A DNA stretch of 64,000 nt, taken from the NCBI GenBank assembly GCA_042566505.1, contig JBHPKP010000001.1:8483-72482 (forward strand). Direction: 5' to 3'. The DNA is from a bacterium. GTDB lineage: Bacteria > RUG730 > JBDRED01 > JBHPKP01. The stretch's first letter is position 1. Each line of letters begins with the position of its first letter. This document shows positions 25,070 to 56,262 of this stretch, one piece after another. The notes below the pieces were generated by a model. The model was not told the DNA's origin. It saw nothing but the letters and a program-made list of their open reading frames with translations, and ran no database searches. A program made the position numbers and the translations under genes.

Positions 25070-27799
25070 ATGTATTTAATAATTCTATTCCCAATAGCAT
25101 TTGTAACTTTTTTTATTTTTGTTGGAATATTTAAAATACGTAAAAATTATTTTTTAAAAAATTATTTTATTTCTTTCAATGTTATAACCTTGATTTGGCT
25201 ATTAACTAACTTTTTTTGTTTGTATACAGGTGTTGGCTTTTTATGGTTTAAACTAGCCTACGCAACAGGTGCATTAGTACTCTGCACTACCTTTTTACTT
25301 ATTTTAAGTTTCTCAAAACAAGCAAAATTATCAAATTTCACATTATTAAAAATATATTTAATTGGAGGTTCCTTTTTCACATTATCTCTTTTTGACAACA
25401 TTTTTTTTAAAGGAAAATCTGAAACTTATACAGATTTATTTCTTGTATATTTTATATCACTCATAGGATTATTATTGTTTTCTTTATATAAAATATATAT
25501 CGTATCTAAAAATTTTCAAGGAATTAAAAAGTTACAAGCACGTTATATTTTCTTAGGATTATTCACATTTATTTTTGTCAGCTCACTTATGAGCTTTTGG
25601 TCACCTCTTCTTTTTGATTTTCCAGAACTAGGAAGATATGACTTTTTTGGACAACTTTTTTTCATAGGTTTTACAGGATATGCAATCATCCAGTATAAAC
25701 TTTTGGATATTGACCTTGTCTGGCGTTACACTTCCAGCTATTTACTGTACTTTTTTCTTGGTTCATCACTCTTTGTTTCTATTCTTTTTAGTGTCCGAGA
25801 TTGGTTTTATTCAATCTTAGTAGTCTGTGTCTCATTTGTAGCCTTCTTACCCTTTCTTCATAAATTGATATTGAAATTTGCAAACAACATATTATTAAAA
25901 AAATACAATAGGGTTTGGGATGACTTAAACAAACAAGGATATGAAGATGAGGTTTTTGGCACAACGAAAAAATTAATTAGTAAAAGATTAAACAACATCC
26001 TAAGGCAGCTAAAATTAGCAAATGGCAGCTTCTTTATATTTAAAGAACAAAGTGATAACTATATTTTATTTGAACATCAGGGTAACCAAGGTTCAAAAAA
26101 TATGCGGATTAACTCAAGCAATAAAATTATTGAATATTTAAAGTTTACTAAACAACCTCTAATGAAAGATTTAATTGTTAATGATGATAAAACAGATATT
26201 TTAAGTACAATGGACGAACTAAATGCTGAAATAGCATTCCCTGTTTTCTTAAGTTTTAAACTAATCGGAATACTCTTCCTTGGTCCAAAAATCACAAATA
26301 ATATTTTCAACCCAACTGATATTAACGCTATTGTAGGCATCATCAAACGAACCGAACCAAAGTTAAAGCAAACACTTTACCTAGAACAGCAAGAACAATT
26401 AATGGAAGCATCCAAGAAAATGAGCGAAATAAAAGAACTCAATAAACTTGCAAAATACATTGTTCACACTTTCATGCGTTCTTTAAATTCTGTGAATGCT
26501 TCTATTTATATTTACAATGAAAAAGAAAGTAACTATACAAAAGCTTATGAAAAAGGACTCCTGCAAAACAATAAAGACATTGCATTCAAACATGATGATC
26601 ACTTTATCAAATATCTAACACAACGAGGATCTCCATTACTTTATAATGATATACATAGATGGGCAGAAGAAACAAGATCAGAAGAACTTAAAAATGTTGC
26701 AAAAAAATCTGCCGATATACACGCACAAATAACTATTCCAATGATTTATGAAAAACTTTTAGGGTTTGTTGTATTGGGTGAAAAACGAGTTTTCAAAACA
26801 TATTCGTACGAAGAAATAAACACCTGCAATATACTTGCTTCAGCTGCATCTACAAATATCCACAACATCATCTTGGCAGAGGAAGCTATGCGTGACCCAT
26901 TAACAAATTTGTACAATAGAAAACACTTTAGCGCACTTGTAAAAGAAAGCATTCTCAAATCAATTAAAATCCAAAAACCTCTTTCGTTTATCATTATTGA
27001 CCTTGACCACTTTAAACAATACAATGATGATTTTGGACATCAATATGGTGATACAATTCTTGAAAAATTTTCAAACTATATTGTGCGAAGCATCAGACCC
27101 GCTGATATTGCAGTAAGATATGGTGGTGAAGAATTTGTGCTTATCCTACCTAACACAAACAGTGAAGGTGCGCAAGTTTTCTGCAACCGTCTGCAAGCAA
27201 GCTTAAAAGACGAACCTGTAATAAGTGACATAACAATGAGTATTGGAATTGGAAGCTTCATACCTGAAAAACGTGAAGAAGACGAAATTTATCCTCTTGA
27301 TATTGACAGAATGAAGAATCAACTCATAAAAGTAGCAGATGCAGCTGTTTATAAAGCAAAGAAAAATGGAAGAGATCAAATATACGTCGGAGAAGAACTT
27401 TTGGAACGAAGTATATTAACAAAGAAGAATGAATATAAAATAAAAATTGCAATAATAATTCCTGACGATATAACTGCTCGCAAAACCAGCCACACACTCC
27501 AATTATTAGGATGTGATACACATGTATTTAATACGGGTCGTGATGGTTTAAGATTTATGGATCAATCTAGTCCGGACATAGTTTTGATGTCCCTTGACTT
27601 GCCAGATGTAGATGGAGTTGAAATCATCAGACAAATGGCAATAAAATATATCACTACAATAAAAGCTATTCTAGCCACAACCAACAAAGCTCACCTACGC
27701 GAAGAAATGCTTGAACTTGGAGTACAAGGATTCTTCCTCGAGCCTCTCAAACCACAAGATATTGAAGCATGGATTAAGTATATTAAAGAGATGATTTAA
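25070..27799 (+). CDS. 7TM receptor-GAF-GGDEF diguanylate cyclase with C-terminal receiver domain
   Basis: N-terminal polytopic membrane domain, central GAF-like region, GGDEF domain with intact active site RYGGEEF and I-site RPAD, C-terminal REC domain (DD pair, LMSLDLPD, T, K). Starts 19 bp after the PilZ-AOS gene. Confidence 0.8.
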   Translation: MYLIILFPIAFVTFFIFVGIFKIRKNYFLKNYFISFNVITLIWLLTNFFCLYTGVGFLWFKLAYATGALVLCTTFLLILSFSKQAKLSNFTLLKIYLIGGSFFTLSLFDNIFFKGKSETYTDLFLVYFISLIGLLLFSLYKIYIVSKNFQGIKKLQARYIFLGLFTFIFVSSLMSFWSPLLFDFPELGRYDFFGQLFFIGFTGYAIIQYKLLDIDLVWRYTSSYLLYFFLGSSLFVSILFSVRDWFYSILVVCVSFVAFLPFLHKLILKFANNILLKKYNRVWDDLNKQGYEDEVFGTTKKLISKRLNNILRQLKLANGSFFIFKEQSDNYILFEHQGNQGSKNMRINSSNKIIEYLKFTKQPLMKDLIVNDDKTDILSTMDELNAEIAFPVFLSFKLIGILFLGPKITNNIFNPTDINAIVGIIKRTEPKLKQTLYLEQQEQLMEASKKMSEIKELNKLAKYIVHTFMRSLNSVNASIYIYNEKESNYTKAYEKGLLQNNKDIAFKHDDHFIKYLTQRGSPLLYNDIHRWAEETRSEELKNVAKKSADIHAQITIPMIYEKLLGFVVLGEKRVFKTYSYEEINTCNILASAASTNIHNIILAEEAMRDPLTNLYNRKHFSALVKESILKSIKIQKPLSFIIIDLDHFKQYNDDFGHQYGDTILEKFSNYIVRSIRPADIAVRYGGEEFVLILPNTNSEGAQVFCNRLQASLKDEPVISDITMSIGIGSFIPEKREEDEIYPLDIDRMKNQLIKVADAAVYKAKKNGRDQIYVGEELLERSILTKKNEYKIKIAIIIPDDITARKTSHTLQLLGCDTHVFNTGRDGLRFMDQSSPDIVLMSLDLPDVDGVEIIRQMAIKYITTIKAILATTNKAHLREEMLELGVQGFFLEPLKPQDIEAWIKYIKEMI

Positions 27800-44363: not shown

Positions 44364-45332
44364 TTAAAGACCCACGAAATACATGTATAATCCCATCATA
44401 ACCGGGATAGTAAAAAGACTAATAATATAAATATAAAACGTAACCTGCCCAATAAATGCAGAATTTCCACCGAATTTTTCAGAGATTGCTGTAAGCGATG
44501 TTGCAGGTGGCATAGCTGCCTGCAACATGATAATAAAACCTAAACTTCTAAAATTCACCGGAAAATTTTTTACAATAAAAAAAGCAATAAGCGGCAATAA
44601 AATCAGTTTTACTAAAGCTAATTCAATAACAATTTTAGGACTGATTTTTAGTTTATTCGAAAAGTTTAAACAAATAATACCGCCTAAAATTATCATTGCT
44701 AGCGGCACAGTACAAGCCCCTAAAAGCTTCATAGGATTTAACAGTATATTTGGAATGTAACTAGTTAAACCGAAATAAGCTATGAAAAGTGAAGATAGAA
44801 TTGCAAAAAGCGGTGGATTAAAAATGTCTTTTATATTTTCTTTATTGAATTTTTTTCCGGCAGCTAACATCACACCAAATGATGCCATGAAAGGAATGAA
44901 TCCCAACAAAAACAAAAATACATAAACAAAATAAGTTTCAGCTTGCTCTTTTGGGAACATAGCTGCAATTAGTGGAATAGGAAGGTAGTTTGCATTATTA
45001 AATGTAAACAAACTGATATATTCTCGTTTCTCTGCCAGGTTTTTATTAAATTTAGTTATGATCAAACCAAACATCGAAGCTGCGCACATAAGAAGAATTG
45101 CACATATTGGATATATCCACCAAGATGGATATTTTTCCGTAGAGAACCTCGTAACCACACTTGTGAAAATCAAACACGGCAAAGTTACATTTATTACCAA
45201 TGTACTTAATGTGCTAATACAAACTTTGCCCAACATTTTTCTTTGAACTAAGAAAAAACCTGTTAACCCAAGTAAAAAAATTTCAAGGGTTCCAAGTCCT
45301 ATAACTTTAAATGATACAAGAAAATTTGACAT
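44364..45332 (-). CDS. AEC-family (auxin efflux carrier / malate permease-like) transporter
   Basis: 322 aa, ~10 TM helices, family-typical N-terminal topology. Confidence 0.65.
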   Translation of the reverse strand: MSNFLVSFKVIGLGTLEIFLLGLTGFFLVQRKMLGKVCISTLSTLVINVTLPCLIFTSVVTRFSTEKYPSWWIYPICAILLMCAASMFGLIITKFNKNLAEKREYISLFTFNNANYLPIPLIAAMFPKEQAETYFVYVFLFLLGFIPFMASFGVMLAAGKKFNKENIKDIFNPPLFAILSSLFIAYFGLTSYIPNILLNPMKLLGACTVPLAMIILGGIICLNFSNKLKISPKIVIELALVKLILLPLIAFFIVKNFPVNFRSLGFIIMLQAAMPPATSLTAISEKFGGNSAFIGQVTFYIYIISLFTIPVMMGLYMYFVGL

Positions 45333-45338
45333 AAAAAA

Positions 45339-45500
45339 TTACGCCTCTATTTCGAATTGATCTTTTCCAACTCCACAAACCGGACACACCCAATCCTCTG
45401 GCAAATCATTGAATAAAGTGCCTGGTTCAATATCTGCAGATGCATCTCCATCAACCGGATTGTAAACATAACCACAAATTTTACAAATGTATTTTTCCAT
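45339..45500 (-). CDS. rubredoxin
   Basis: [15 protein letters not shown]...[15 protein letters not shown] with two CxxCG knuckles. Start placed at the internal Met preceded by GGAGG. Confidence 0.85.
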
Positions 45501-45604
45501 TTTCCACCTCCAATCCTCACTCCGCTTTCTCCCAATCCCCAATCAAGTTGAGGATAACAAAGGAAAGGAGAATTCAGTGAGGATAAATTTTTTATTTCAG
45601 AAGT

Positions 45605-45680
45605 TAGTAACTTGCAACTTTTTAACATGAACTCTTTCATACGAGCCGCAAAAATCGCTCCTGCGTCGCTCAGTTCGTGA
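45605..45680 (+). repeat. diverged copy C of the intergenic repeat family
   Basis: Shares the cores GAACTCTTTCATACGAG and TCGCTCCTGCGTCGCT with copies A/B/D. Flanks diverged. Confidence 0.45.
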
Positions 45681-45704
45681 TAAAAACAACAGTTTTTCAA
45701 ATTT

Positions 45705-46226
45705 CTATACAAGTAAATTACCTGTTTTTATAAATGTTGGTGCGCTCGACGGTGACTTTCCTTTTTTTACATGATGATAATATGCATAGGTCATTGGTGA
45801 AACATTTTTTAAAATTTCAGCATTTACAATTTTGCCAAAAAACACAGTGTGCGTAACTGCATCCGCACTACCCGAAACCTCCACTTCCAAATAAGCTGCT
45901 GAATTTTCCACAACAATTGGCGCACCTGTAACCCCAAGTTTATGTTCCGTACCTTCAAACTTATCAAACTCTCTGCCGCACCTAAATCCAAACTTCCCAA
46001 TAAATGTCATCGGAGTTTCTTCTTCCAAAATTGATACTGTAAACAATTTACTCTTTTCAATATATTCATGTGTACAATTTTTTTTATTGATACTGATTGC
46101 GAGTATTGCCGGATCTGCTGCAACCTGAAAAACAGAATTCGCAATTTGACCATTATATTTATCGTCGGATATTGAACTCACAATATACATTCCATAACTT
46201 AATAAATTTAATGCTTCTACGTTCAT
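45705..46226 (-). CDS. flavin reductase-like (FMN-binding split-barrel) domain protein
   Basis: 173 aa. Flavin_Reduct-like N-terminal signature (LSYGMYIVSS...GQIANSV) and size. Confidence 0.6.
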   Translation of the reverse strand: MNVEALNLLSYGMYIVSSISDDKYNGQIANSVFQVAADPAILAISINKKNCTHEYIEKSKLFTVSILEEETPMTFIGKFGFRCGREFDKFEGTEHKLGVTGAPIVVENSAAYLEVEVSGSADAVTHTVFFGKIVNAEILKNVSPMTYAYYHHVKKGKSPSSAPTFIKTGNLLV

Positions 46227-46237
46227 AAAATCTCTCC

Positions 46238-46885
46238 CTACTTAAAAACCTTTCTTGTTTCCTTGTACCAAAAAACAAAATCCAAATCCTGAAGCGGTAC
46301 ATTTATCTCTTGTGAAAATTTTAGCATTTTTTCTTCAATCGCAAGATATTTTCTTTCGGTTAATGTTTTTGGTATTTCTTTGATTACACCAAACTTTTTT
46401 AAATTTTTTAGAATATGCCGATCAAGTATTGATATTTTTTTTCCTAAACCTATATTTCGCAAATAATGGCTCGCTTCCTTGTACCCTATCCCTTGTATTA
46501 GTTTCACCAAATACTTTCTAATTTTCTTAACATCCTTTGATTTCAAGATATCCGGCAAAAGAGTTCCCATCCTCAAAAAATCTCTAGCTTCACAAATGTA
46601 TCTTGCTTTCTTATTGTGAAACCTCACTTCTTTTAGATGGACTTTAATATCGTCGGGTTGTGCTTTAAAAAGCAACTTTGTCTGAGTTAAATATCGAATA
46701 GCTTTGTCTGCATTTACTGCTTTTGATTGTGGAGTACACAAACAAAAACAAAGTTCAGTAAAAAGTTCTTTTGCATCTAATCTTTGTTTTTTTTGTAAAA
46801 ATTTTTTTAAACGAGTTTTTATTTGTGGTTTGATTTCTTTATAAATATCTAAAATTTCAGAATATTTATGAGTTTGTTTTTGCAT
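46238..46885 (-). CDS. ogg: 8-oxoguanine DNA glycosylase / N-glycosylase-DNA lyase (archaeal-type Ogg)
   Basis: 215 aa, helix-hairpin-helix region with the catalytic Lys/Asp spacing typical of the Ogg family. Confidence 0.65.
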   Translation of the reverse strand: MQKQTHKYSEILDIYKEIKPQIKTRLKKFLQKKQRLDAKELFTELCFCLCTPQSKAVNADKAIRYLTQTKLLFKAQPDDIKVHLKEVRFHNKKARYICEARDFLRMGTLLPDILKSKDVKKIRKYLVKLIQGIGYKEASHYLRNIGLGKKISILDRHILKNLKKFGVIKEIPKTLTERKYLAIEEKMLKFSQEINVPLQDLDFVFWYKETRKVFK

Positions 46886-46889
46886 GATA

Positions 46890-48053
46890 TTATTTTAAGC
46901 CTGTGAGTAAATTCTTAACTTCAGTAAGCTGATCTTCAGATGGCACATAATTAACTCTTATAGGATCTATTACTTTTTCAAATCCCATACCAGATAAAAT
47001 TTCATCAATCTGTTTCACACTTTGACCACCCCAGCCATATGAACCAAATGCCAGATATTTCCGATCTTTAGGAGCAAGCCCTTTCAGGTATGTTAAGAAC
47101 GATGCAACCGTTGGCAGCATATTATTATTCAGTGTAGGCGAACCCACACAAATATATTCTGCATCCAAAACCTCAGTCATCGCGTCTGAAATGTGGCTGC
47201 TCTTAAGATCAATAAGAACTGCCTTAATATTTTTATCCTCAAATGCATCATAAATCGATTTTGCAATCTTTTCCGTTGAATGCCACATGCTATCATAAAC
47301 TATAACAGCTTTTCGGACCGTATCGTTATTTGCCCATGCAGTATACCTGGAAACTATCTCACTAATATTTTTTCGCCAAATTATTCCATGGCTTGGTGCA
47401 ATCATATCAATAGCCAGCCCACCAACTACAGTAAGTGCTTTTTGCACCTGTTGCCCAAACGGCAACACAATATTTGCATAATATTTTGCAGCCTGCTCCA
47501 TGATGATTCCCAAATCCAATTCATCATCAAATCTTTCATAGCTTGCAATATGCTGACCAAATGCATCGTTTGGAATGAGCAGTTTATCCTCTGGAATATA
47601 TGTAACCATAGAGTCCGGCCAATGAACCATCGGGATTTGTACGAAATTCAGATTACGTTTGCCAATATTAAATGTAGAACCTGTTGAAACTATTTCTGCA
47701 TCAAAATCCTGTTTATAGTGAATCTTGAGTCCATCAAGTCCTTTTTGTGATGTAATAATCTTTGCATTTGGGACAAGCTCTAAAAACTCTGGCAGACTGC
47801 CTGAATGATCCATCTCAACATGGTTCACAACTACATAATCAATCTTACTCAGATCAATCACACTTTTGATACGCTCGAGCATCTCATCATATTTATAGTC
47901 CTTAACCGTATCCACCAAAACTACTTTTTCATCGATAAGTAAATACGAATTGTATGTCGAACCTTTTTGAGTCTTATATCCATGAAACTCTCTCAAATTC
48001 CAATCAATTCCGCCAACCCAAAAAATATTATCTTTTATCTCAACTGCCTTCAC
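46890..48053 (-). CDS. fprA: flavodiiron protein (rubredoxin:oxygen/NO oxidoreductase, FprA family)
   Basis: Metallo-beta-lactamase-like diiron motif HVEMDHSG plus C-terminal flavodoxin domain. Size 387 aa. Confidence 0.85.
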   Translation of the reverse strand: MKAVEIKDNIFWVGGIDWNLREFHGYKTQKGSTYNSYLLIDEKVVLVDTVKDYKYDEMLERIKSVIDLSKIDYVVVNHVEMDHSGSLPEFLELVPNAKIITSQKGLDGLKIHYKQDFDAEIVSTGSTFNIGKRNLNFVQIPMVHWPDSMVTYIPEDKLLIPNDAFGQHIASYERFDDELDLGIIMEQAAKYYANIVLPFGQQVQKALTVVGGLAIDMIAPSHGIIWRKNISEIVSRYTAWANNDTVRKAVIVYDSMWHSTEKIAKSIYDAFEDKNIKAVLIDLKSSHISDAMTEVLDAEYICVGSPTLNNNMLPTVASFLTYLKGLAPKDRKYLAFGSYGWGGQSVKQIDEILSGMGFEKVIDPIRVNYVPSEDQLTEVKNLLTGLK

Positions 48054-48065
48054 TATCTTACTCCT

Positions 48066-48416
48066 TTAAACTGTTACTGCTATTGCATTCTCCCACATAC
48101 CGTGCACATTACACATTGACAATGCTATCAAACTTTTAAACTTCCCCTTCACAACATGTGTCTTCACATATGGAACTGTATTTTCACCGCCAAGTACAAA
48201 CCTTGTTAAAAACACTAATTTACCTGTTTCATCTAATCCAAACAAATCTATAAATTGTATATGATGTTCCGGTGTATGTGGATGCAGCACAGTTTCGCCA
48301 ACCTTTATAACAACACTCACTTCATTACATGTTGAACATGCAGTTACATTTATAAATGGAACATGTTTCTCTTTTCCTTCCTCACTTCCTTTTTTGATCA
48401 AGCCTCCAAATTCCAT
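48066..48416 (-). CDS. superoxide reductase (neelaredoxin/desulfoferrodoxin centre II type)
   Basis: 116 aa, EKHVPF motif and the His/Cys ligand pattern of 1Fe-SOR. Confidence 0.8.
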   Translation of the reverse strand: MEFGGLIKKGSEEGKEKHVPFINVTACSTCNEVSVVIKVGETVLHPHTPEHHIQFIDLFGLDETGKLVFLTRFVLGGENTVPYVKTHVVKGKFKSLIALSMCNVHGMWENAIAVTV

Positions 48417-48450
48417 AATGACCCTCCAAGTTTTATATGCTTTCCAATTA

Positions 48451-49026
48451 CTAACAGATGCACACTACCTCATAATAGCTTTGTGGATGCTCACATGCCG
48501 GACATTTTTTTGGCGCTTCATTGCCTTTTTGTATATATCCACAGTTTCTACATTTCCATTTCACTTCATGATCTTTTTTGAATACTTCACCCTTTTCAAT
48601 CTCTGCTAATAGTTTTAAGTAACGTGCTTCATGCTCTCTTTCAACATCTGCAATAAACTTAAAAGTATCTGCAACATCTTTAAAACCCTCTTCGAGCGCT
48701 GTATTTGCACCTTCAAGATATAGCTTACCCCATTCTTCATGCTCACCTTCTGCAGCAGCTTTTAAATTCGACTTCGTGTCTAAAATTTTACCGGCAGGAT
48801 ACATTGCAGTTATTTCAACTGCTCCACCTTCTAAATATTTGAAAAACTTTTTTGCATGTTCTTTTTCATTTTCAGCAGTTTCCAAAAATACAGCAGAGAT
48901 ATGCTCATACCCTTCTTTTTTTGCAGCACTTGCAAAATAGGTATATCTATTTCTTGCCTGTGACTCACCTGCAAATGAAGCTAATAAATTCTTTTCTGTT
49001 TTTGTTCCTTTTAAACTTTTTGACAT
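48451..49026 (-). CDS. rbr: rubrerythrin
   Basis: N-terminal diiron ferritin-like domain plus C-terminal rubredoxin-like CRNCGY...CPACEH. Confidence 0.9.
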   Translation of the reverse strand: MSKSLKGTKTEKNLLASFAGESQARNRYTYFASAAKKEGYEHISAVFLETAENEKEHAKKFFKYLEGGAVEITAMYPAGKILDTKSNLKAAAEGEHEEWGKLYLEGANTALEEGFKDVADTFKFIADVEREHEARYLKLLAEIEKGEVFKKDHEVKWKCRNCGYIQKGNEAPKKCPACEHPQSYYEVVCIC

Positions 49027-49098
49027 TTTTCTCTCCTATAATAAATTCCCCCCTCTTCCATCAGCTTATTGGAGAGGGAGTTAGAATTAGAATGAGGA

Positions 49099-49617
49099 CT
49101 ATTTCACCTGTAGTAGCGATGGCACAGTAAATACCCTCAGAGCAAGTTCACTATCAAATGCTAAAAGTGCCTGACCTGCATCACCGAATGTATCCAGCTT
49201 TTGCAATAAGCCGCTTGCATTTGCTTCTTCTTCAACCTGCTCTTTTATAAACCATTCTAAGAAATTTTCAGTAGCAAAGTCATTCTCAGTTCTTGCCAAT
49301 GCAGAAAGTGAATGAATCAATCCTGTAACTTTTTGCTCATGCTCAAGTGTGTGTTTAAACAAATTACGGACAGATGTAAAATCATTTTTTGGAGCTTCAA
49401 TTGCATCCAAAATAACACGCGCACCCTGCTGACTCATGTAATTGTAAAGTATCCTCGCATGCGCAAGCTCTTCCTCAACCTGTACCCCAAACCAGTTTGC
49501 AGTTCCCTTCAATCCAATTGATTCTGCATAACTTGCCATTGAAAGATATAGATAACTCGAGAAAATCTCTCGATTAATCTGAAAATTAATACTCGTTGCC
49601 ATCTTATCACTAATCAT
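49099..49617 (-). CDS. ftn: non-haem ferritin
   Basis: YLYLSMASYAE...EEELAH...TLEHEQ...ENFLEWFIKEQVEEEANA typical of bacterial Ftn. Confidence 0.85.
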   Translation of the reverse strand: MISDKMATSINFQINREIFSSYLYLSMASYAESIGLKGTANWFGVQVEEELAHARILYNYMSQQGARVILDAIEAPKNDFTSVRNLFKHTLEHEQKVTGLIHSLSALARTENDFATENFLEWFIKEQVEEEANASGLLQKLDTFGDAGQALLAFDSELALRVFTVPSLLQVK

Positions 49618-49911: not shown

Positions 49912-49936
49912 TGAACCCTCCTGGTATAATCCTCAC

Positions 49937-49952
49937 TACAAATATTTGTAGA
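49937..49952. promoter_or_regulatory. 16-bp perfect palindrome immediately upstream of the small regulator gene
   Basis: CTACAAATATTTGTAG, 26 bp upstream of the ORF start, adjacent to the shared AGTGAGGATT motif. Confidence 0.35.
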
Positions 49953-49954
49953 TA

Positions 49955-51590
49955 GAATTATTTATTATTTTTATAATTTAAAAGTTCTTTTAAGCTAGGA
50001 AGACAGCTTGCATCCCTCCTTATAGAGCCTTCGGCTACTATTCAAGAAAGACTGTTGCTTCCTACTAAGCTAACTGGGAATATTTATTTAGGATGATATG
50101 GGGTTCGGTTGCTACCAAATTACCATTTATTACCCAGGCTATATTGAGTTAGTTCTTGTAGGAATTTCTTCCAAAACTTTTAAAGATCAATTTTAATTTT
50201 AGGAGGCAAAAACTATGTTTTATCTTGGCATTGATATTGCTAAATCTTCCGCTCGCTATGTCTTACTCGACAATGACGGCGAAAAAGCTCACAAAGCTTT
50301 CACTCTCCGAAACTCTAACGATGATTTTGAGAAACTTCTTAGTTTTCTAAAAAAGTTTAATCTTGATCATCAAAATTTATTAATCGGCATCGAAGCTACT
50401 GGCATTTGGTGGGAAAATATTTTTTCCTTTTTAACACAAAACAATTTTAAAATTGTTTTGTTAAATCCTCACCAAACTAAAAAATTCAGAGAAGCTCTCA
50501 GATTAAAAGCTAAAACCGACGACATTGATGCCTTTGTTATCGCAGGTCTATTGCGTTCTAATCAATTTTCTGCAAGCTTTATTCCTGAAGAAAATATTCA
50601 AACTTTAAGAGAAACCACTAAACTTCGTTATCAACTTATGCAAAATTTAAAAAATTATGAGCGACAAGTTTTTAGTTTACTCGGTCTAATTTTTCCTGAA
50701 TATGAAAAATCTCCTCTTAAAAATCCTTTTTCTATTTCAGCAATCTCTATTTTTAAAGCTTTTCCAACTGCCAAACATCTAGCAGATGCTAAACCTAAAC
50801 AAATTGAAAAAATTGTTCGTTCAATAAAAGGCAATACACTTAATATCGATCGTATTCAAGAACTTATTAATATTGCCAAAAAATCTATTTATTCCGGTCG
50901 AGCTAAAATTTCTCGTGGCATGAATTTGAATATTTTGCTTGCTCAAATCCAACAACTTTTCAAATCCATTGCTCAACTCGATTCTGAAATTGATTCAATT
51001 TTATCGCCAAACAATGACGATGATTTAAATTTTCCCGGTGCCAATCTTTTAACGATTCCAGGAGTTGGACCAAAAACCGTTGCAGCTATTTTATCTGCTG
51101 TCGGGATTGATGGAAAAACTTTTAAATCTGTTACACAATTTATTGGCCACATTGGTTTTTATCCACAAATTTATCAATCCGGCGAAACTAAACGTGACAA
51201 CAAAATTTCTAAACAAGGACCCTCTTATTTACGGCATGCTCTTTATATTTCTGCTGTCGCATGTCTAAGACATAATCCTGAATTTAAAAATTTGTACAAC
51301 AAAAAATGTTCGCAAGGTAAAAAACCTAAACAAGCTCTAATTTGTGTCGCTAAAAAAATTGCAGAGCTTTGTTTAAGTATGCTTAAAAGCGGTGAAGTTT
51401 ATCTTCCTCAACGCGTTTTTATGCAAACTTAATTTCTGTACACTTTACTCGTTCTTTGACATGTTTCTATTTTAAAAGAGCAATTTTTTGCTTTACTTCT
51501 TATAGGATGTCTTTGTAACGAGAATTTTTTTATTAAATTTAATTTATTCTAAGGGATAAGTGAGATAAGAGCAAGCAAAAATTCATTTAC
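49955..51590 (+). mobile_element. IS110-family insertion sequence (ends approximate)
   Basis: Single transposase ORF with ~300-bp upstream and ~160-bp downstream non-coding flanks, the usual IS110 layout. No terminal inverted repeats are evident, as expected for the family. Confidence 0.55.
50215..51432 (+). CDS. IS110-family transposase
   Basis: N-terminal DEDD RuvC-like domain (MFYLGIDIAKSS..., IGIEATG, DDIDA) and C-terminal HhH transposase_20-like region. Strong RBS AGGAGG. Confidence 0.85.
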   Translation: MFYLGIDIAKSSARYVLLDNDGEKAHKAFTLRNSNDDFEKLLSFLKKFNLDHQNLLIGIEATGIWWENIFSFLTQNNFKIVLLNPHQTKKFREALRLKAKTDDIDAFVIAGLLRSNQFSASFIPEENIQTLRETTKLRYQLMQNLKNYERQVFSLLGLIFPEYEKSPLKNPFSISAISIFKAFPTAKHLADAKPKQIEKIVRSIKGNTLNIDRIQELINIAKKSIYSGRAKISRGMNLNILLAQIQQLFKSIAQLDSEIDSILSPNNDDDLNFPGANLLTIPGVGPKTVAAILSAVGIDGKTFKSVTQFIGHIGFYPQIYQSGETKRDNKISKQGPSYLRHALYISAVACLRHNPEFKNLYNKKCSQGKKPKQALICVAKKIAELCLSMLKSGEVYLPQRVFMQT

Positions 51591-51593
51591 ATT

Positions 51594-53216
51594 CTACTGA
51601 CGAGAGGATGCTATTGTATTTTTCCCTAGAATTCTCTCAATTCTTACTATCAATTCTTCAGGATAAAAAGGTTTGGTAATATATTCAACTGCACCTTTTT
51701 TAAACCCTTGTACTATATCACCTTCCTGATTCTTGGCAGAAAGTATCAAAACAGGGATATTCATTGTAGATTCTGTTTTTTTTATATTTTTCAAAACCTG
51801 CATGCCGTCTACTTTTGGCATCATCACATCTAGTATTATTAAAGCCGGAGGTGTACTATTAACAACTTCCAAACCCGATTCTCCATCGAAACTGCACATT
51901 ACTTCATAACCTTTTTCTTCAAGTTTAGCTTTGACCAAATTGCAAATATCTTCATCATCATCAATAATAGTAATCATATTTGATTTAGTTCTTTTTTTAG
52001 ATTTTTTATCTTCATACATATTGACATCTGCAATCTCAAAAACACGTTCTTCACTATTAACTTCTTTACTAAACGTTGAGCTGCCAACACTTATTGAAAA
52101 GTTTATTTTTTTGCCAGTCTTATCGATAATTGATAATTCATTTTTATTAATACTTTTTAATTTTTTCTCAACAATTGTCGCATTTTCCTTGTCACATTCC
52201 GAGAGAATTATTACAAATTCATCACCACCAAACCTTGCAATAATATCACTTTGCCTAAGCTCGCTGTTCAAAATTTGCGCAATTTTCTGGATTGCAAGAT
52301 CACCTGCAAAATGTCCAAATGTATCATTTATAACCTTCAAGTTGTCCATATCAACAATAAGGAGTGAATAAACTTTTTCATATCTTTTTGCTATATCATT
52401 GAAAAGTTTTATTTGTTTCTTAAAATAATCTTTATTGTGCAAACCCGTAAGTCCATCTGTCATTGAGATACATTCATACATTTTTTTCTTCTTAAGAATG
52501 GCTTTCACACGCGCCAAAAGCTCTTCTTCCTCGAACGGTTTGGTCATGTAATCGTCAGCACCTAATTCAAGCGCTGCTACTTTATCCTTTACAGCGTCCT
52601 TTGCAGTCAAAAATAATACAGGGATACCTTGAGTCATCTCATCTTGATTCAATTTCGCCTTTAGCTCTATTCCATCCAAACCTGGCATATCAATATCCAA
52701 AATAGCAATATCAGGCACAATTTGCTTGATCATTTCAAATGCGTTCAATCCATCAGAAGCTTCATATACATTGTACCCATCATCTCTTAACAACTGTTCT
52801 AAAACCAATAAAATATCAGGTTCATCATCTGCTATAAGAATCCTACTTTTAACAGGATTTAATTCGCTGCTATTTGAATTCACGAATTTCTCTTTTGTAC
52901 TTTCTGATTTATTATGGTCTATAGATTGCTGTACTTTTACAATGTACTCTATTAATTTTTCATTTAATTTTTCAATTTTTTGTATATCCTTGTCTTGAGC
53001 AGCTTGTTCCATTTCTTGACCGATTCTTGTAATTTCACCTAAACCATACATTCCACCGGAACCACGCATTTTGTGTGCAAGATGCTTAATATTTTCTGTA
53101 TCACCGACTTTTAAATTTTCATTAATTGTATTGCAGTCCTCGTTTCTATGTTTAATATAGGCTGCAATAAATTTTTCAAGTTTTGGATTGATATGTATTG
53201 TTCCTGACTGACTCAT
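51594..53216 (-). CDS. Hpt-REC-GGDEF-REC diguanylate cyclase / phosphorelay protein
   Basis: N-terminal Hpt (HKMRGSGGMYG), first receiver (ILIADDEPD...ILDIDMPGLDG), GGDEF with I-site RQSD and active site RFGGDEF, second receiver (IIDDDEDI...ILDVMMPKVDG...TKPF). Confidence 0.8.
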   Translation of the reverse strand: MSQSGTIHINPKLEKFIAAYIKHRNEDCNTINENLKVGDTENIKHLAHKMRGSGGMYGLGEITRIGQEMEQAAQDKDIQKIEKLNEKLIEYIVKVQQSIDHNKSESTKEKFVNSNSSELNPVKSRILIADDEPDILLVLEQLLRDDGYNVYEASDGLNAFEMIKQIVPDIAILDIDMPGLDGIELKAKLNQDEMTQGIPVLFLTAKDAVKDKVAALELGADDYMTKPFEEEELLARVKAILKKKKMYECISMTDGLTGLHNKDYFKKQIKLFNDIAKRYEKVYSLLIVDMDNLKVINDTFGHFAGDLAIQKIAQILNSELRQSDIIARFGGDEFVIILSECDKENATIVEKKLKSINKNELSIIDKTGKKINFSISVGSSTFSKEVNSEERVFEIADVNMYEDKKSKKRTKSNMITIIDDDEDICNLVKAKLEEKGYEVMCSFDGESGLEVVNSTPPALIILDVMMPKVDGMQVLKNIKKTESTMNIPVLILSAKNQEGDIVQGFKKGAVEYITKPFYPEELIVRIERILGKNTIASSRQ

Positions 53217-53228
53217 ATTTTTAATCCT

Positions 53229-53600
53229 TTAAGATTGCGTATATTTTTGTGCCATTCCCAACAAACCATCCTCTTCAAATGGTTTTGTTAAGAATGCATT
53301 CCCACCAGCTTCTGCAACCTTTGTTTCAATATTATCCACACTTGCACTAACAATTACAACCGGAATGTGTTTTAAATCATCATCGGTTTTTATAGCTGCA
53401 CACACTTCATCACCTGTCATTATTGGTATCTGTATATCAAGAAATACCATGTCCGGTTTTTCACTTCTAACTTTTTCCATAGCTATTTGTCCGTTTTCAG
53501 CATGAATCACTTCATAGCCCGCATCTTCGAGCCAATAGATCGCAACATTCGCAATATCCGGTTCATCCTCAACCAATAATATTCTTTTCCTTTCACTCAT
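53229..53600 (-). CDS. single-domain response regulator (CheY-like)
   Basis: LLVEDEPDIA...VFLDIQIPIMTGDE...TKPF, 123 aa. Confidence 0.85.
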   Translation of the reverse strand: MSERKRILLVEDEPDIANVAIYWLEDAGYEVIHAENGQIAMEKVRSEKPDMVFLDIQIPIMTGDEVCAAIKTDDDLKHIPVVIVSASVDNIETKVAEAGGNAFLTKPFEEDGLLGMAQKYTQS

Positions 53601-53626
53601 CTTACATCCTCCTTAAACTGGATTAA

Positions 53627-55159
53627 TTAATTACAAGTTTGCAATGGCAGTGTAAAAATAAATTTGCTTCCTTTTCCAAGTACAGATTCTGCCCATATTT
53701 TCCCCTCATGCCCAGCAACTATTTCTCTACATATTGCAAGTCCCAAACCGCTGCTGCCGGGTTTTCTATAGTTCCCGTCAACAATCTGCTGATATTCAGC
53801 AAAGATTTTGTCCAAATCTTCATCTTTCATACCCGGACCAGTATCTTCAACGAATACTTTTAAAGCATTTGCTTCTTTAACTGTTCCGACTGTTATACCA
53901 CCAACTTCAGTAAACTTTTGCGCATTATTCATAAGATTAATTAATACTTGTGTAATCTTGTCAGCATCACAATTAATATCAGAAATATTTTCCTGTAAAT
54001 CTGTTTTTAAATAAAGTCCTTTAGAGTTCACAGCTACTTCCTGCATTGAAACAGCTTTTTCAATTATTGGATTTATACTTTGCTTTCTATGAAAATACTC
54101 CATGTTCCCGGATTCAAGTTTACTAAAATCAAGTACTTCATTTATCAATCTATGTAATCTTTCAACATTATTTTGGGCAACAACCAAAAAATTCCGCATT
54201 TTTTCATCCAATTCCAACCCTGCTTTTTTTATCACAATATTAAGATTTCCTTTTATGGAAGTGAGTGGTGTTCTAAGTTCATGAGAAACCATAGAAGTGA
54301 ATTTGGATTTAGCATCCATTGCATCACGCAGTTTTTCCTCAACGATTTTTCGTTCTTTAACTTCAGTATGGAGTTGTGTAATTGAGGTTGTTGAATTTTG
54401 TATGTATCTAACCATCTTGTCGAATGACCTGGAAAGCTGACCAATTTCATCCTTTGCCTTTGTTCCCACTCTGTGCGCAAAATCACCTTTTTCAACTATT
54501 TCTGTTCCTTCATGGAGAGCACGTAGTGGTCGTGTAATTGATCGTGCAATGAAAAGCGATATAAAAATTGCTAATAGAATGGACATAAATGATGCTATAT
54601 TTGCAGTGTTACTTCCCAGTTTACTCATATATGCAATTTTTCTCATGTCTGTATTTATTTGGCTTATATGCTCTGCTTTATCATACTCTAGTTCTTCCAA
54701 CAAAATTGCAAGTGGCTCATGCAGCGTTTGCTTTGCTTCTTGCACTAATTTATCTAAGGAAATACCCCTTTTTTTCATATCAACTATTGTGCCAATTGCA
54801 AGTTCAAATTCCTGCACTTTTCTTTGAACGCTTTGCGCACGAAACTTCTCAATATTCGTCGCATTAACTGCACTTTTGACATGCTCATATGACCTTGCAT
54901 TTAATTGCTGCAGACTAGCCATTAATTCTTTTTCGGTTACGGCATCTCCATCCAGCATATACTCTTTTGTCAAATGAGCTGTTTTATTCGCAGTCCTAGC
55001 CATTTCAACAACTGAAATCCCTTCCGGAATTATTTCTTGCTGCAACTCTACAAACACATTGTTCATCTCTCCAATTTTTAAGTTGATATAATAAAGCGAT
55101 GCAATTGTTACAAGAATTACAAGCACAAATCCTGCATTTAATCTCGTTCTTACTTTCAC
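53627..55159 (-). CDS. sensor histidine kinase (two TM segments, HAMP, HisKA, HATPase_c)
   Basis: H-box SHELRTPL, N/G1/G2 boxes (NLMNNAQKF, EDTGPGM, GLGLAICREIV). ~150-aa extracytoplasmic loop between the TM helices. Confidence 0.85.
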   Translation of the reverse strand: MKVRTRLNAGFVLVILVTIASLYYINLKIGEMNNVFVELQQEIIPEGISVVEMARTANKTAHLTKEYMLDGDAVTEKELMASLQQLNARSYEHVKSAVNATNIEKFRAQSVQRKVQEFELAIGTIVDMKKRGISLDKLVQEAKQTLHEPLAILLEELEYDKAEHISQINTDMRKIAYMSKLGSNTANIASFMSILLAIFISLFIARSITRPLRALHEGTEIVEKGDFAHRVGTKAKDEIGQLSRSFDKMVRYIQNSTTSITQLHTEVKERKIVEEKLRDAMDAKSKFTSMVSHELRTPLTSIKGNLNIVIKKAGLELDEKMRNFLVVAQNNVERLHRLINEVLDFSKLESGNMEYFHRKQSINPIIEKAVSMQEVAVNSKGLYLKTDLQENISDINCDADKITQVLINLMNNAQKFTEVGGITVGTVKEANALKVFVEDTGPGMKDEDLDKIFAEYQQIVDGNYRKPGSSGLGLAICREIVAGHEGKIWAESVLGKGSKFIFTLPLQTCN

Positions 55160-55363: not shown

Positions 55364-55754
55364 TGGTGGAGGTGGCGGGAATTGAACCCGCGTCCAGAAA
55401 TACGTCAGCAGCAACATCTACAAGCTTAGCTAAAATGTTTATCTCACTGCCAGTCCCACATTTAGCAAAGGAACATCTGACAGCCAGCCGAAAATGTCCA
55501 TTTTATGTCCGGCACATAAAATGTAAGTCCTCTGCTTTAGACCTTATTCCCATCCGAAGACAAAACGGAAAGGGCCCGCTGCTTAAATTAAGCAGCTATT
55601 GCCATAGGCATTACCATTGTTGGCGCAACCTGCGGCATTACGTTGAATACTTTGTTTTCAGCGTTTACTGTTTTAGGCGATTTTTAACGAGTTTATCGAC
55701 TAACCTCGACCTGCATTACTACCTCTATTATCCCTGTCGAAACCGATCACCCCC
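55364..55754 (-). ncRNA. ssrA: tmRNA (ssrA)
   Basis: Minus strand 5' end GGGGGTGATCGGTTTCGACAGGG and 3' end GCGGGTTCAATTCCCGCCACCTCCACCA (tRNA-like domain, CCA encoded). Internal tag reading frame ends ...MAIAA-TAA. smpB lies immediately downstream. Confidence 0.8.
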
Positions 55755-55794: not shown

Positions 55795-56262
55795 TTATGC
55801 TTTAAAACCTTTAATGTTTTTCATTTCACGTTCAAGGTCTCGTTTTTTTATTGTTTCACGTTTATCGTACAGTTTTTTTCCTTTTACCAATGCAATCTTC
55901 ATTTTCGCATATCCGCGTTTATTGAAGAAAATCTCAAGCGGAACAACAGATAATCCTTTTTCTTTTACCTTGCCCATGAGCTTTGAAATCTCACGTTTAT
56001 GCAAAAGAATCTTTCGAGTCCGCTCAGGCTCGTAATCATCATCTCTTGTTGCATGTGAGTATCTGCTTATATGCATCTTCACTATGAACGCTTCTTCATT
56101 CTTGAAACGTACATAACTGTCCTTTAAGTTTGCCTTACCTGCTCTAAGTGATTTCACTTCCTGTCCAATAAGTTGTATGCCAGCTTCGAAATCTTCAACT
56201 ATAAAATAATCATGATATGCTTTTCTATTTGATGCAACTGCTTTCATTATATTATACCACAC
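55795..56262 (-). CDS. smpB: SsrA-binding protein SmpB
   Basis: 155 aa, conserved SmpB sequence (NRKAYHDY...KMHISRYSH... C-terminal basic tail). Confidence 0.9.
   Translation of the reverse strand: MWYNIMKAVASNRKAYHDYFIVEDFEAGIQLIGQEVKSLRAGKANLKDSYVRFKNEEAFIVKMHISRYSHATRDDDYEPERTRKILLHKREISKLMGKVKEKGLSVVPLEIFFNKRGYAKMKIALVKGKKLYDKRETIKKRDLEREMKNIKGFKA

What the first reader, a model, noticed from the sequence alone, without database searches (positions are those of the whole stretch)
51594..55159. Histidine kinase - CheY-like REC - Hpt-REC-GGDEF-REC phosphorelay
Three co-oriented genes separated by 12 and 26 bp encode a membrane sensor kinase, a stand-alone receiver, and a cyclase that carries its own Hpt domain between two receivers. 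This looks like a multistep His-Asp-His-Asp relay ending in c-di-GMP synthesis. Hpt fused directly to a GGDEF protein is uncommon. An IS110 element sits immediately downstream and may affect termination or expression.
Basis: partly seen in the sequence, partly recalled or inferred. Interest (0 to 1): 0.55.

Follow-up and report, generated by a model that had tools for sequence, protein, structure and literature searches.

The report
Kinase–receiver–Hpt-cyclase c-di-GMP phosphorelay operon
Three tightly packed genes in an uncultivated Elusimicrobiota-like anaerobe encode a membrane sensor kinase, a small receiver protein and a c-di-GMP-making enzyme with its own phosphotransfer domain; the set recurs in distant bacteria but has not been studied.

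Summary
On the minus strand lie a TM-HAMP-HisKA-HATPase kinase (55159..53627), a 123-aa receiver (53600..53229) and a 540-aa Hpt-REC-GGDEF-REC protein (53216..51594). The gaps are 26 and 12 bp, and each downstream gene has its own ribosome-binding site.

The Hpt call holds by Pfam score, by PDB sequence matches with the phospho-His aligned, and by predicted fold. Every phospho-acceptor, the GGDEF motif and the RxxD I-site are intact.

At least 99 cluster representatives (50% identity) share the exact four-domain layout. Across them the Hpt His is kept in 91/99, the REC1 Asp in 83/99 and the REC2 Asp in 96/99.

In 7 of 11 genomic contexts a single-domain receiver lies beside the cyclase, and a kinase (hybrid or not) lies beside it wherever the contig reaches far enough. 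In 4 of 11 an exopolysaccharide-type glycosyltransferase follows.

The best reading is a multistep phosphorelay that switches on c-di-GMP synthesis. The order of transfer is inferred, not shown.

The IS110 transposase gene is real, single-copy in the window and convergent. Its ends and its effect could not be tested, because no close relative was found.

This is a moderately interesting, uncharacterised variant built from known parts.

The parts
53627..55159 (-). Sensor histidine kinase, 510 aa, GTG start. Layout: TM1, an outside loop of about 150 aa, TM2, HAMP, HisKA (H-box HELRTP, His293), HATPase_c. It has no fused receiver.
   Evidence: ORF; Pfam; hydrophobic segments and H-box; RBS AGGAGG
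54398..54553 (-). HAMP domain of the kinase (aa 203-254)
   Evidence: Pfam PF00672, 51.9 bits
54107..54313 (-). HisKA (DHp) domain with the phospho-His293 (aa 283-351)
   Evidence: Pfam PF00512, 70.8 bits; H-box
53639..53968 (-). HATPase_c catalytic domain of the kinase (aa 398-507)
   Evidence: Pfam PF02518, 89.5 bits
53229..53600 (-). Stand-alone receiver (sREC), 123 aa. Acid pair E11/D12, acceptor D55, S85, F103, K106.
   Evidence: Pfam PF00072, 87 bits; residues read from the sequence; orthologue in L001 is 44% identical
51594..53216 (-). Hpt-REC-GGDEF-REC diguanylate cyclase, 540 aa
   Evidence: Pfam; alignments; AF2 model with pLDDT 91.6
52899..53186 (-). Hpt four-helix bundle (aa 11-106). 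Phospho-His48 lies in the motif AHKMRGSGG.
   Evidence: Pfam 36.2 bits against a cut-off of 24.6; PDB sequence hits 7c1i and 1a0b with the His aligned; AF2 pLDDT 87 and Foldseek top hits are Hpt domains
52494..52847 (-). REC1 (aa 124-241). D130/D131, acceptor D174, T204, Y223, K226. Helix alpha-5 runs on (aa 230-251) into the GGDEF domain.
   Evidence: Pfam; conservation; secondary structure
51993..52463 (-). GGDEF catalytic domain (aa 252-408). GGDEF is at 330-334, and the I-site R321-x-x-D324 lies five residues upstream.
   Evidence: Pfam 132 bits; TIGR00254 148 bits; conservation
51621..51980 (-). REC2 (aa 413-532). D419/D420, acceptor D463, S493, Y512, K515. Only about 4 residues separate it from the last GGDEF helix.
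   Evidence: Pfam; conservation; model
50215..51432 (+). IS110-family transposase gene (405 aa), convergent with the operon. A neighbour, not a component. Element ends are undefined.
   Evidence: Pfam and NCBIfam; single copy in the window
55364..55754 (-). tmRNA gene (ssrA), 204 bp upstream of the kinase start. Context only.
   Evidence: ARAGORN; Rfam RF00023 171 bits

Best explanation
The three genes form one operon that encodes a multistep phosphorelay switching on c-di-GMP synthesis.

Proposed path (inferred):
1. An extracytoplasmic signal, sensed by the kinase's outside loop and passed through HAMP, sets autophosphorylation on His293.
2. The phosphoryl group goes to Asp55 of the stand-alone receiver.
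3. It then goes to His48 of the Hpt domain, which is tethered to the cyclase by a flexible linker of about 18 residues.
4. From there it goes to the cyclase's own receivers.

Phosphorylation of REC1 (Asp174), whose last helix continues into the GGDEF domain as in DgcR, WspR and PleD, would promote the dimer arrangement that lets two GGDEF domains make c-di-GMP. The RxxD I-site would give product inhibition. REC2 (Asp463) would act as a second acceptor that tunes or drains the signal.

The likely downstream target, judged from relatives, is an exopolysaccharide synthase. None is encoded in this window.

Shown here: the domains, the motifs, the operon structure, and the conservation of residues and of gene neighbourhood. 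Inferred: every phosphotransfer step and its order, the activation mechanism and the output.
For: Domains and operon:
- All domains score above curated cut-offs.
- The gaps are 26 and 12 bp, each with its own RBS.
- The Hpt is verified by HMM, by PDB sequence alignment to the ArcB phospho-His, and by predicted fold.

Conservation in the family:
- In 99 representatives the Hpt His is kept in 91, the REC1 Asp in 83, the REC1 Lys in 93, the REC2 Asp in 96 and the REC2 Lys in 99. GG[DE]EF is kept in at least 96, the I-site R in 94 and the I-site D in 97.
- Pfam Hpt is detected in 75 of 92 members.

Gene neighbourhood:
- The same three parts occur together in L001/L002 (same gene order; sREC 44%, REC1 51%, REC2 54% and kinase core 50% identical), L167, L168, L169 and L172. 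L170 also has them, but the contig is cut at the kinase.
- All five sRECs examined keep the acceptor residues.

Core resembles known cyclases:
- The REC1-GGDEF core best matches the solved REC-GGDEF cyclases DgcR (31-32% identity over about 291 columns), WspR and PleD.
- REC1 alpha-5 continues as one helix (aa 230-251) towards GGDEF.

Precedent and output:
- Relays that end on REC-GGDEF cyclases are shown experimentally elsewhere: Silicibacter HK-Hpt-DGC (PMC4436077) and Anabaena CdgK-CdgS (PMC9927289).
- For output, a BcsA-like cellulose synthase follows the cyclase in L001, and PgaC/IcaA-like GT2 genes follow it in L166, L171 and L172.
Against: - No phosphotransfer was or could be tested.
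- In L168, L169 and L172 the kinase already carries a receiver, yet the stand-alone receiver is still there. The stand-alone receiver is therefore not obviously 'the' intermediate.
- The REC2 acceptor (96/99) is better conserved than the REC1 acceptor (83/99). REC2 could be the main acceptor or the intermediate.
- All three receivers have canonical T/S and aromatic switch residues. None carries the FATGUY-type motif seen in some intermediary receivers, and no general sequence rule separates intermediary from terminal receivers (PMC9981736).
- Four of 11 family contexts lack the neighbouring receiver.
- Only 64 kb of the genome is visible, so other kinases or Hpt partners may exist.
Confidence: 0.55

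Rival explanations
1. This is a direct two-component system with an internal redistribution device. The kinase phosphorylates one of the cyclase's own receivers directly (REC2 or REC1). The tethered Hpt then shuttles phosphate reversibly between REC2, REC1 and the stand-alone receiver. The stand-alone receiver serves as a phosphate sink or timer rather than as the obligatory intermediate.
For: - The stand-alone receiver persists beside hybrid kinases that already have an intermediary receiver.
- The REC2 acceptor is the best conserved in the family, at 96/99 against 83/99 for REC1.
- The Hpt sits on a flexible linker (pLDDT about 50 at residues 107-124), which suits contact with several receivers.
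- Hpt transfers are reversible in general (established knowledge of phosphorelays).
Against: - A kinase without a fused receiver, next to a single receiver and an Hpt, is the minimal complete set for a linear relay.
- Nothing in the sequences marks the stand-alone receiver as a sink.
- Gene order in the window and in L001 (kinase, receiver, cyclase) follows the linear order.
Confidence: 0.27
2. The Hpt domain is an entry port for other kinases. Hybrid kinases encoded elsewhere in the genome feed the cyclase through its Hpt, while the adjacent kinase pairs only with the stand-alone receiver or with one cyclase receiver. The protein would then integrate several inputs.
For: - In L165 a family member lies among hybrid kinases that carry REC and Hpt domains, without a single receiver.
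- Orphan family members exist, in Paenibacillus (L003) and in L171.
- A second cyclase with a C-terminal receiver lies in the same window at 25070..27799, so the signalling network is larger than this operon.
Against: - The neighbourhood is conserved in 7 of 11 contexts, which argues that the adjacent proteins are the main partners.
- No hybrid kinase is visible in the 64-kb window.
Confidence: 0.12
3. The N-terminal helical bundle is a degenerate Hpt used only for dimerisation or docking, and the gene adjacency has no relay meaning.
For: - 8 of 99 family members lack the His, for example P0033 with Gln.
- 17 of 92 fail the Pfam Hpt model at E <= 0.01.
Against: - His48 and Gly52 of the HxxKG motif are kept in 91/99.
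- The window protein passes the Pfam cut-off and aligns His-to-His with ArcB.
- Synteny is conserved across phyla.
Confidence: 0.04

Closest known systems
Multistep phosphorelays ending on REC-GGDEF cyclases (Silicibacter SiliHK-SiliHpt-SiliDGC, PMC4436077; Anabaena CdgK-CdgS, PMC9927289)
   Same: They use His-Asp-His-Asp logic whose last acceptor is the receiver of a diguanylate cyclase. Phosphorylation changes cyclase activity.
   Different: In those systems the intermediary receiver is fused to the kinase. The Hpt is either a separate protein or is also part of the kinase. Here the kinase is plain, the intermediary receiver is (putatively) a separate protein, the Hpt is fused to the N-terminus of the cyclase, and the cyclase has an extra C-terminal receiver.
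Bacillus subtilis sporulation relay KinA-Spo0F-Spo0B-Spo0A (own knowledge; Spo0F is discussed in PMC9981736)
   Same: It has a non-hybrid kinase, a single-domain receiver as intermediary, a histidine phosphotransferase and a terminal response regulator, all as separable modules.
   Different: Spo0B is a dimeric DHp-like protein, not a monomeric Hpt bundle, and it is not fused to Spo0A. The output is DNA binding, not c-di-GMP.
REC-GGDEF cyclases DgcR (6zxb), WspR (3bre) and PleD (1w25, 2v0n)
   Same: The REC1-helix-GGDEF core is the best structural match. It has the GGDEF active site and the RxxD I-site. Activation by phosphorylation-driven dimer rearrangement is expected by analogy.
   Different: None of them has an Hpt domain or a receiver after GGDEF. 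The window protein scores below the curated NCBIfam cut-offs for PleD (314.8 against 474) and DgcR (187.7 against 500).
Unorthodox kinases ArcB, BarA, TorS and the RcsC-RcsD pair
   Same: They carry the same kind of Hpt four-helix bundle with an HxxKG phospho-His. ArcB, YojN/RcsD and HptB are the best sequence and fold matches.
   Different: There the Hpt travels with the kinase side of the pathway. Here it travels with the output side.

Membership tests
Hpt domain (PF01627) | Profile score above the curated cut-off | tested here: met
   36.2 bits against a cut-off of 24.6, residues 22-86
Hpt domain (PF01627) | Four-helix bundle fold | tested here: met
   AF2 model of residues 1-118 has pLDDT 87.3 and four helices. 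The Foldseek top hits are YojN/RcsD, ArcB, fungal Hpt, HptB and Shewanella Hpt, with probability 1.0 and TM 0.6-0.7. The E-values are only 0.02-0.05, as expected for a small bundle.
Hpt domain (PF01627) | Solvent-exposed phospho-His in an HxxKG-type motif, conserved in relatives | tested here: met
   His48 lies in AHKMRGSGG and aligns with the phospho-His of ArcB Hpt. His is kept in 91/99 and Gly in 91/99 of the family.
Hpt domain (PF01627) | Actual phosphotransfer to and from receivers | not testable with these tools
   Needs biochemistry
Receiver domains (PF00072), three copies | Acid pair, phospho-Asp, T/S, aromatic switch residue and Lys all present | tested here: met
   sREC has E11/D12, D55, S85, F103, K106. 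REC1 has D130/D131, D174, T204, Y223, K226. REC2 has D419/D420, D463, S493, Y512, K515.
GGDEF diguanylate cyclase (PF00990 / TIGR00254) | Intact GG[DE]EF motif and conserved metal- and GTP-binding positions | tested here: met
   GGDEF is at 330-334. D289, D291, N297, D298 and D306 are invariant or nearly invariant. Scores are 132 bits and 148 bits.
GGDEF diguanylate cyclase (PF00990 / TIGR00254) | RxxD inhibitory site five residues before GGDEF | tested here: met
   R321-Q-S-D324. R is kept in 94/99 and D in 97/99.
GGDEF diguanylate cyclase (PF00990 / TIGR00254) | c-di-GMP synthesis | not testable with these tools
   Needs an enzyme assay
PleD family (NCBIfam NF007135) | Score above the equivalog cut-off; REC-REC-GGDEF layout | tested here: not met
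   314.8 bits against a cut-off of 474, and the layout differs
DgcR (NCBIfam NF047654) | Score above the equivalog cut-off; REC-GGDEF only | tested here: not met
   187.7 bits against a cut-off of 500, with extra Hpt and REC2. Nevertheless it is the best structural match for the core.
Class I transmembrane sensor histidine kinase | HisKA with H-box His, HATPase_c, HAMP, two TM segments | tested here: met
Multistep His-Asp-His-Asp phosphorelay | All four phospho-acceptor modules are present and intact | tested here: met
Multistep His-Asp-His-Asp phosphorelay | Components are genetically linked across lineages | tested here: met
   A single receiver is adjacent in 7 of 11 contexts. A kinase is adjacent in 7 of 11: six of the seven sREC contexts, plus L166, which has no sREC. 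In the seventh sREC context, L170, the contig is cut.
Multistep His-Asp-His-Asp phosphorelay | Order and direction of phosphotransfer | not testable with these tools
   Needs phosphotransfer profiling. The sequence features of the receivers do not discriminate.
IS110 family insertion sequence | DEDD (RuvC-like) N-terminal domain and Transposase_20 C-terminal domain; NCBIfam equivalog | tested here: met
   116.3 and 78.8 bits; NF033542 scores 235.5 against a cut-off of 140
IS110 family insertion sequence | Defined element ends and a structured non-coding (bridge/guide) RNA beside the gene | tested here: inconclusive
   There is no second copy in the window. The 255 nt upstream fold no better than shuffles, z = 0.13. 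There is no Rfam match. No relatives are available to show an empty site.

The most novel reading that the evidence does not exclude
The Hpt-REC-GGDEF-REC protein, with its ever-present single-receiver partner, is a distinct and widespread class of self-contained phosphorelay hub. The tethered Hpt moves phosphate back and forth between three receivers (sREC, REC1, REC2). Cyclase output would then depend on how phosphate is partitioned among them, as a timer or threshold device for exopolysaccharide production, and not on a simple linear chain.
Probability: 0.2. Interest if true: 0.55.

Novelty: new variant of a known kind. Interest (0 to 1): 0.35.

Why it matters
Phosphorelays that control c-di-GMP are known. 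In every characterised case found here, however, the Hpt step belongs to the kinase side or is a free protein.

Here the Hpt is fused to the output enzyme, which also carries a second, C-terminal receiver. A single-domain receiver accompanies it from Elusimicrobiota-like bacteria to Bacillota, often next to exopolysaccharide synthase genes.

This is a conserved, untested wiring plan for biofilm-type decisions. It offers a compact three-protein system for asking how phosphate is routed among several receivers. For this window itself it is a plausible regulator of surface polysaccharide in an uncultivated anaerobe, and nothing more exotic.

Tried and rejected
(1) Genomic island at the tmRNA gene. 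The operon starts 204 bp after the ssrA 3' end, but the last 22 nt of tmRNA have no second copy in the window, even allowing 3 mismatches. No integrase is adjacent. Rejected.

(2) A second IS copy, to define the element's ends. None was found in the window or in the loci held at the time. The exact transposase is not on record.

(3) Bridge or guide RNA upstream of the transposase. The fold is no better than shuffles (z = 0.13), and Rfam gives nothing meaningful. Left open.

(4) Close relatives, to look for an IS-free site. The genome-contig scan gave best matches of 33-35% identity over the REC-GGDEF-REC region, with higher percentages only on short single-domain segments. The metagenome-contig scan was similar. 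The source contig is not in those collections, and the exact cyclase has no record in the contig index.

(5) Telling intermediary from terminal receivers by sequence. No general rule exists (PMC9981736). The FxSGY/'FATGUY' motif is absent from all three receivers, read directly from the sequences.

(6) A receiver tree, to test for orthology of the single receivers across phyla. Only the window-L001 pairs group clearly. The deeper branches are unresolved.

(7) An exopolysaccharide synthase in the window. tblastn with the L001 and L166 neighbours found nothing.

(8) Literature strings 'Hpt-REC-GGDEF', 'Hpt-GGDEF', 'REC-GGDEF-REC' and 'N-terminal Hpt' plus GGDEF. No paper in the held library describes the architecture. 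The library is incomplete, so this is absence of evidence only.

It was repeated on 92.


Full report
OBSERVATION

- 55159..53627, 510 aa, GTG start.
- 53600..53229, 123 aa.
- 53216..51594, 540 aa.

They are separated by 26 and 12 bp. Each downstream gene has its own Shine-Dalgarno sequence. AAGGAGG lies before the receiver ATG, and AAGGA overlaps the receiver stop before the cyclase ATG. The kinase GTG is preceded by AGGAGG. This is operon-like packing.

Pfam places all domains above the curated cut-offs:
- Kinase: HAMP, HisKA and HATPase_c.
- Small protein: one Response_reg.
- Large protein: Hpt (36.2 bits against 24.6), Response_reg, GGDEF, Response_reg.

The kinase has two hydrophobic segments around an outside loop of about 150 residues. 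It has no fused receiver.

One correction to the finding's wording: the Hpt is N-terminal, and the GGDEF domain lies between the two receivers.

IS THE HPT REAL?

Three independent lines agree.
- The Pfam score is above the gathering cut-off.
- phmmer against PDB sequences finds P. aeruginosa HptB (7c1i, E = 0.002) and the ArcB Hpt (1a0b). His48 of the motif AHKMRGSGG aligns to the ArcB phospho-histidine.
- An AlphaFold2 model of residues 1-118 (pLDDT 87.3) is a four-helix bundle. Its Foldseek top matches in the PDB are almost all Hpt domains (YojN/RcsD, ArcB, a fungal Hpt, HptB, Shewanella Hpt), with probability 1.0 and TM 0.6-0.7. The E-values are modest, as expected for a small bundle.

ARE THE ACCEPTOR RESIDUES CONSERVED?

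This was the second refutation test. A profile of eight full-length relatives was run against 1.84 billion cluster representatives. Among the best 150 hits, 99 proteins match the whole profile in a single stretch; 92 of them are 500-599 aa long.

In their alignment:

| Position | Kept in |
|---|---|
| Hpt His | 91/99 |
| Hpt Gly (HxxKG) | 91/99 |
| REC1 Asp | 83/99 |
| REC1 Lys | 93/99 |
| REC2 Asp | 96/99 |
| REC2 Lys | 99/99 |
| GG[DE]EF | at least 96/99 |
| I-site Arg | 94/99 |
| I-site Asp | 97/99 |

Pfam detects Hpt in 75 of 92 of these proteins, and REC and GGDEF in all 92.

So the window protein belongs to a populated family with a fixed four-domain layout. 'Uncommon' is true relative to the hundreds of thousands of REC-GGDEF proteins, but the layout is not rare in absolute terms. 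Named members come from Paenibacillus, Mesobacillus and an Acidobacteriota MAG.

The window itself comes from an uncultivated bacterium. Its GroEL is closest (77-80% identity) to Endomicrobiales and Elusimicrobiota MAGs. The neighbouring genes mark it as a strict anaerobe: ferritin, rubrerythrin, desulfoferrodoxin and a flavodiiron protein.

GENE NEIGHBOURHOOD

Eleven distinct contexts of family members could be read.

| Context | Source | Arrangement |
|---|---|---|
| Window | this window | kinase - single receiver - cyclase |
| L001/L002 | nearest relative, cyclase 47% identical | PAS kinase - single receiver - cyclase, then HlyD-like and BcsA-like genes |
| L167 | | cyclase - single receiver - non-hybrid HAMP-GAF-PAS kinase |
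| L168 | complete genome with CotJB and Mn-catalase genes nearby, consistent with a spore-forming Bacillota | cyclase - single receiver - hybrid kinase |
| L169 | | cyclase - single receiver - hybrid kinase |
| L170 | | cyclase - single receiver, then the contig ends |
| L172 | | single receiver - hybrid kinase - cyclase - HEAT-repeat protein - PgaC/IcaA-like GT2 |
| L166 | | divergent 5TMR-LYT kinase, cyclase, HEAT + GT2, no single receiver |
| L171 | | cyclase, HEAT + GT2 only |
| L003 | Paenibacillus | orphan |
| L165 | Acidobacteriota; Hpt His replaced by Gln | cyclase among hybrid REC-Hpt kinases |

In L001 the sREC is 44% identical to the window's, REC1 51%, REC2 54% and the kinase core 50%. 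Its BcsA-like gene scores 389 bits to the CelA catalytic-subunit model.

The single receiver is a neighbour in 7 of 11 contexts. A kinase is a neighbour in 7: the six sREC contexts in which the contig extends far enough, plus L166. A polysaccharide-type glycosyltransferase follows in 4. All five single receivers examined keep the acceptor residues.

MECHANISM

The minimal reading is a linear relay:
1. Kinase His293.
2. sREC Asp55.
3. Hpt His48.
4. The cyclase receivers.

The full-length model (pLDDT 91.6, pTM 0.74) shows three things:
- A disordered linker (residues about 107-124) between the Hpt and REC1, so the Hpt is tethered but mobile.
- REC1 helix alpha-5 continuing as one helix (230-251) into the GGDEF domain.
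- REC2 joined to the last GGDEF helix by only about four residues.

The closest solved structures are the REC-GGDEF cyclases DgcR (31-32% identity), WspR and PleD. By analogy, phosphorylation of REC1 should drive the dimer rearrangement that activates catalysis, with RxxD product inhibition. These steps are inference.

Two observations argue against taking the linear order for granted.
- The single receiver is retained next to hybrid kinases that already have an intermediary receiver.
- The REC2 acceptor is more conserved than the REC1 acceptor.

A branched or reversible scheme therefore remains a serious rival. In it, the Hpt redistributes phosphate among three receivers and the single receiver acts as a sink. 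Sequence features do not decide between them. All three receivers have canonical switch residues, and no general signature separates intermediary from terminal receivers (PMC9981736).

COMPARISON WITH KNOWN SYSTEMS

Relays ending on REC-GGDEF cyclases have been demonstrated in Silicibacter (hybrid kinase, free Hpt, cyclase) and in Anabaena (CdgK with REC and Hpt, then CdgS).

The modular layout resembles KinA-Spo0F-Spo0B-Spo0A. The novelty here lies in where the parts are placed:
- The Hpt is on the output protein.
- There is an extra receiver after GGDEF.
- A stand-alone receiver is a constant companion.

The protein scores below the curated NCBIfam cut-offs for PleD and DgcR, and NCBI names it only 'response regulator'. 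Full-text searches for the architecture found no description. The library is incomplete, so this is not proof of absence.

THE IS110 GENE

A 405-aa IS110-family transposase gene (50215..51432, plus strand) converges on the operon, with 161 bp between the two stops.
- The cyclase C-terminus aligns to the end of its relatives, so the gene is not truncated.
- The IS lies between the cyclase and a co-directional CPF_0552-family gene that is followed by the oxidative-stress cluster.
- In four relatives the corresponding position, immediately downstream of the cyclase, holds polysaccharide synthase genes. None is present in the window.
- The element is single-copy here.
- Its ends, any guide RNA, and its presence or absence in relatives could not be determined.
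- No convincing terminator was found after the cyclase.

Any effect on expression is speculation.

VERDICT

The system is an uncharacterised but recurrent variant of a known signalling scheme, built entirely from standard parts. Interest is moderate.

Noticed in passing
window 23354..25051 (+): A 565-aa protein has an N-terminal PilZ domain (residues 44-125, 26.7 bits against a cut-off of 22.5). It is fused to a PLP-dependent alpha-oxoamine synthase of the serine palmitoyltransferase/BioF/Kbl type (402 bits to the SPT model, below its cut-off of 640). A c-di-GMP-binding domain on a lipid or amino-acid condensing enzyme is unusual.
   Followed up: partly
window 25070..27799 (+): Immediately downstream of the PilZ fusion lies a 909-aa protein with about 8-10 hydrophobic segments, then GGDEF (606-770) and a C-terminal receiver (797-902). 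It is a second cyclase in the window with a receiver after GGDEF.
   Followed up: partly
L001 3302..6098; L166 6613..9065; L171 6696..9232; L172 6708..9242: In relatives the Hpt-REC-GGDEF-REC gene is followed either by HlyD-like plus BcsA-like cellulose-synthase genes or by a HEAT-repeat protein plus a PgaC/IcaA-like GT2. This suggests an uncharacterised c-di-GMP-linked exopolysaccharide locus.
   Followed up: partly
window 49912..50214 and 51433..51593: These are the non-coding flanks of the IS110-family ('RNA-guided') transposase gene. No structured RNA could be detected by folding or by Rfam, and the element ends are undefined. The left flank must also hold the promoter of the neighbouring minus-strand CPF_0552-family gene.
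   Followed up: partly
window 55364..55754 (-) and 55795..56262 (-): The tmRNA gene has an unusually long predicted tag, AENKVFNVMPQVAPTMVMPMAIAA. It lies directly downstream of the 155-aa ORF at 55795..56262 (read as smpB from its sequence; not scanned). The signalling operon starts 204 bp after the tmRNA 3' end, but there is no att-like repeat or integrase.
   Followed up: yes
window 44364..49617 (-): A run of genes for coping with oxygen and oxidative damage: ferritin, rubrerythrin, desulfoferrodoxin, a flavodiiron protein, an Ogg-type 8-oxoguanine glycosylase and a flavin reductase. This fits a strict anaerobe.
   Followed up: no
L172 9288..11133: Downstream of the relay-plus-GT2 cluster in this relative lie an 80-aa EAL fragment and a chemoreceptor with a CZB zinc-binding domain.
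   Followed up: no
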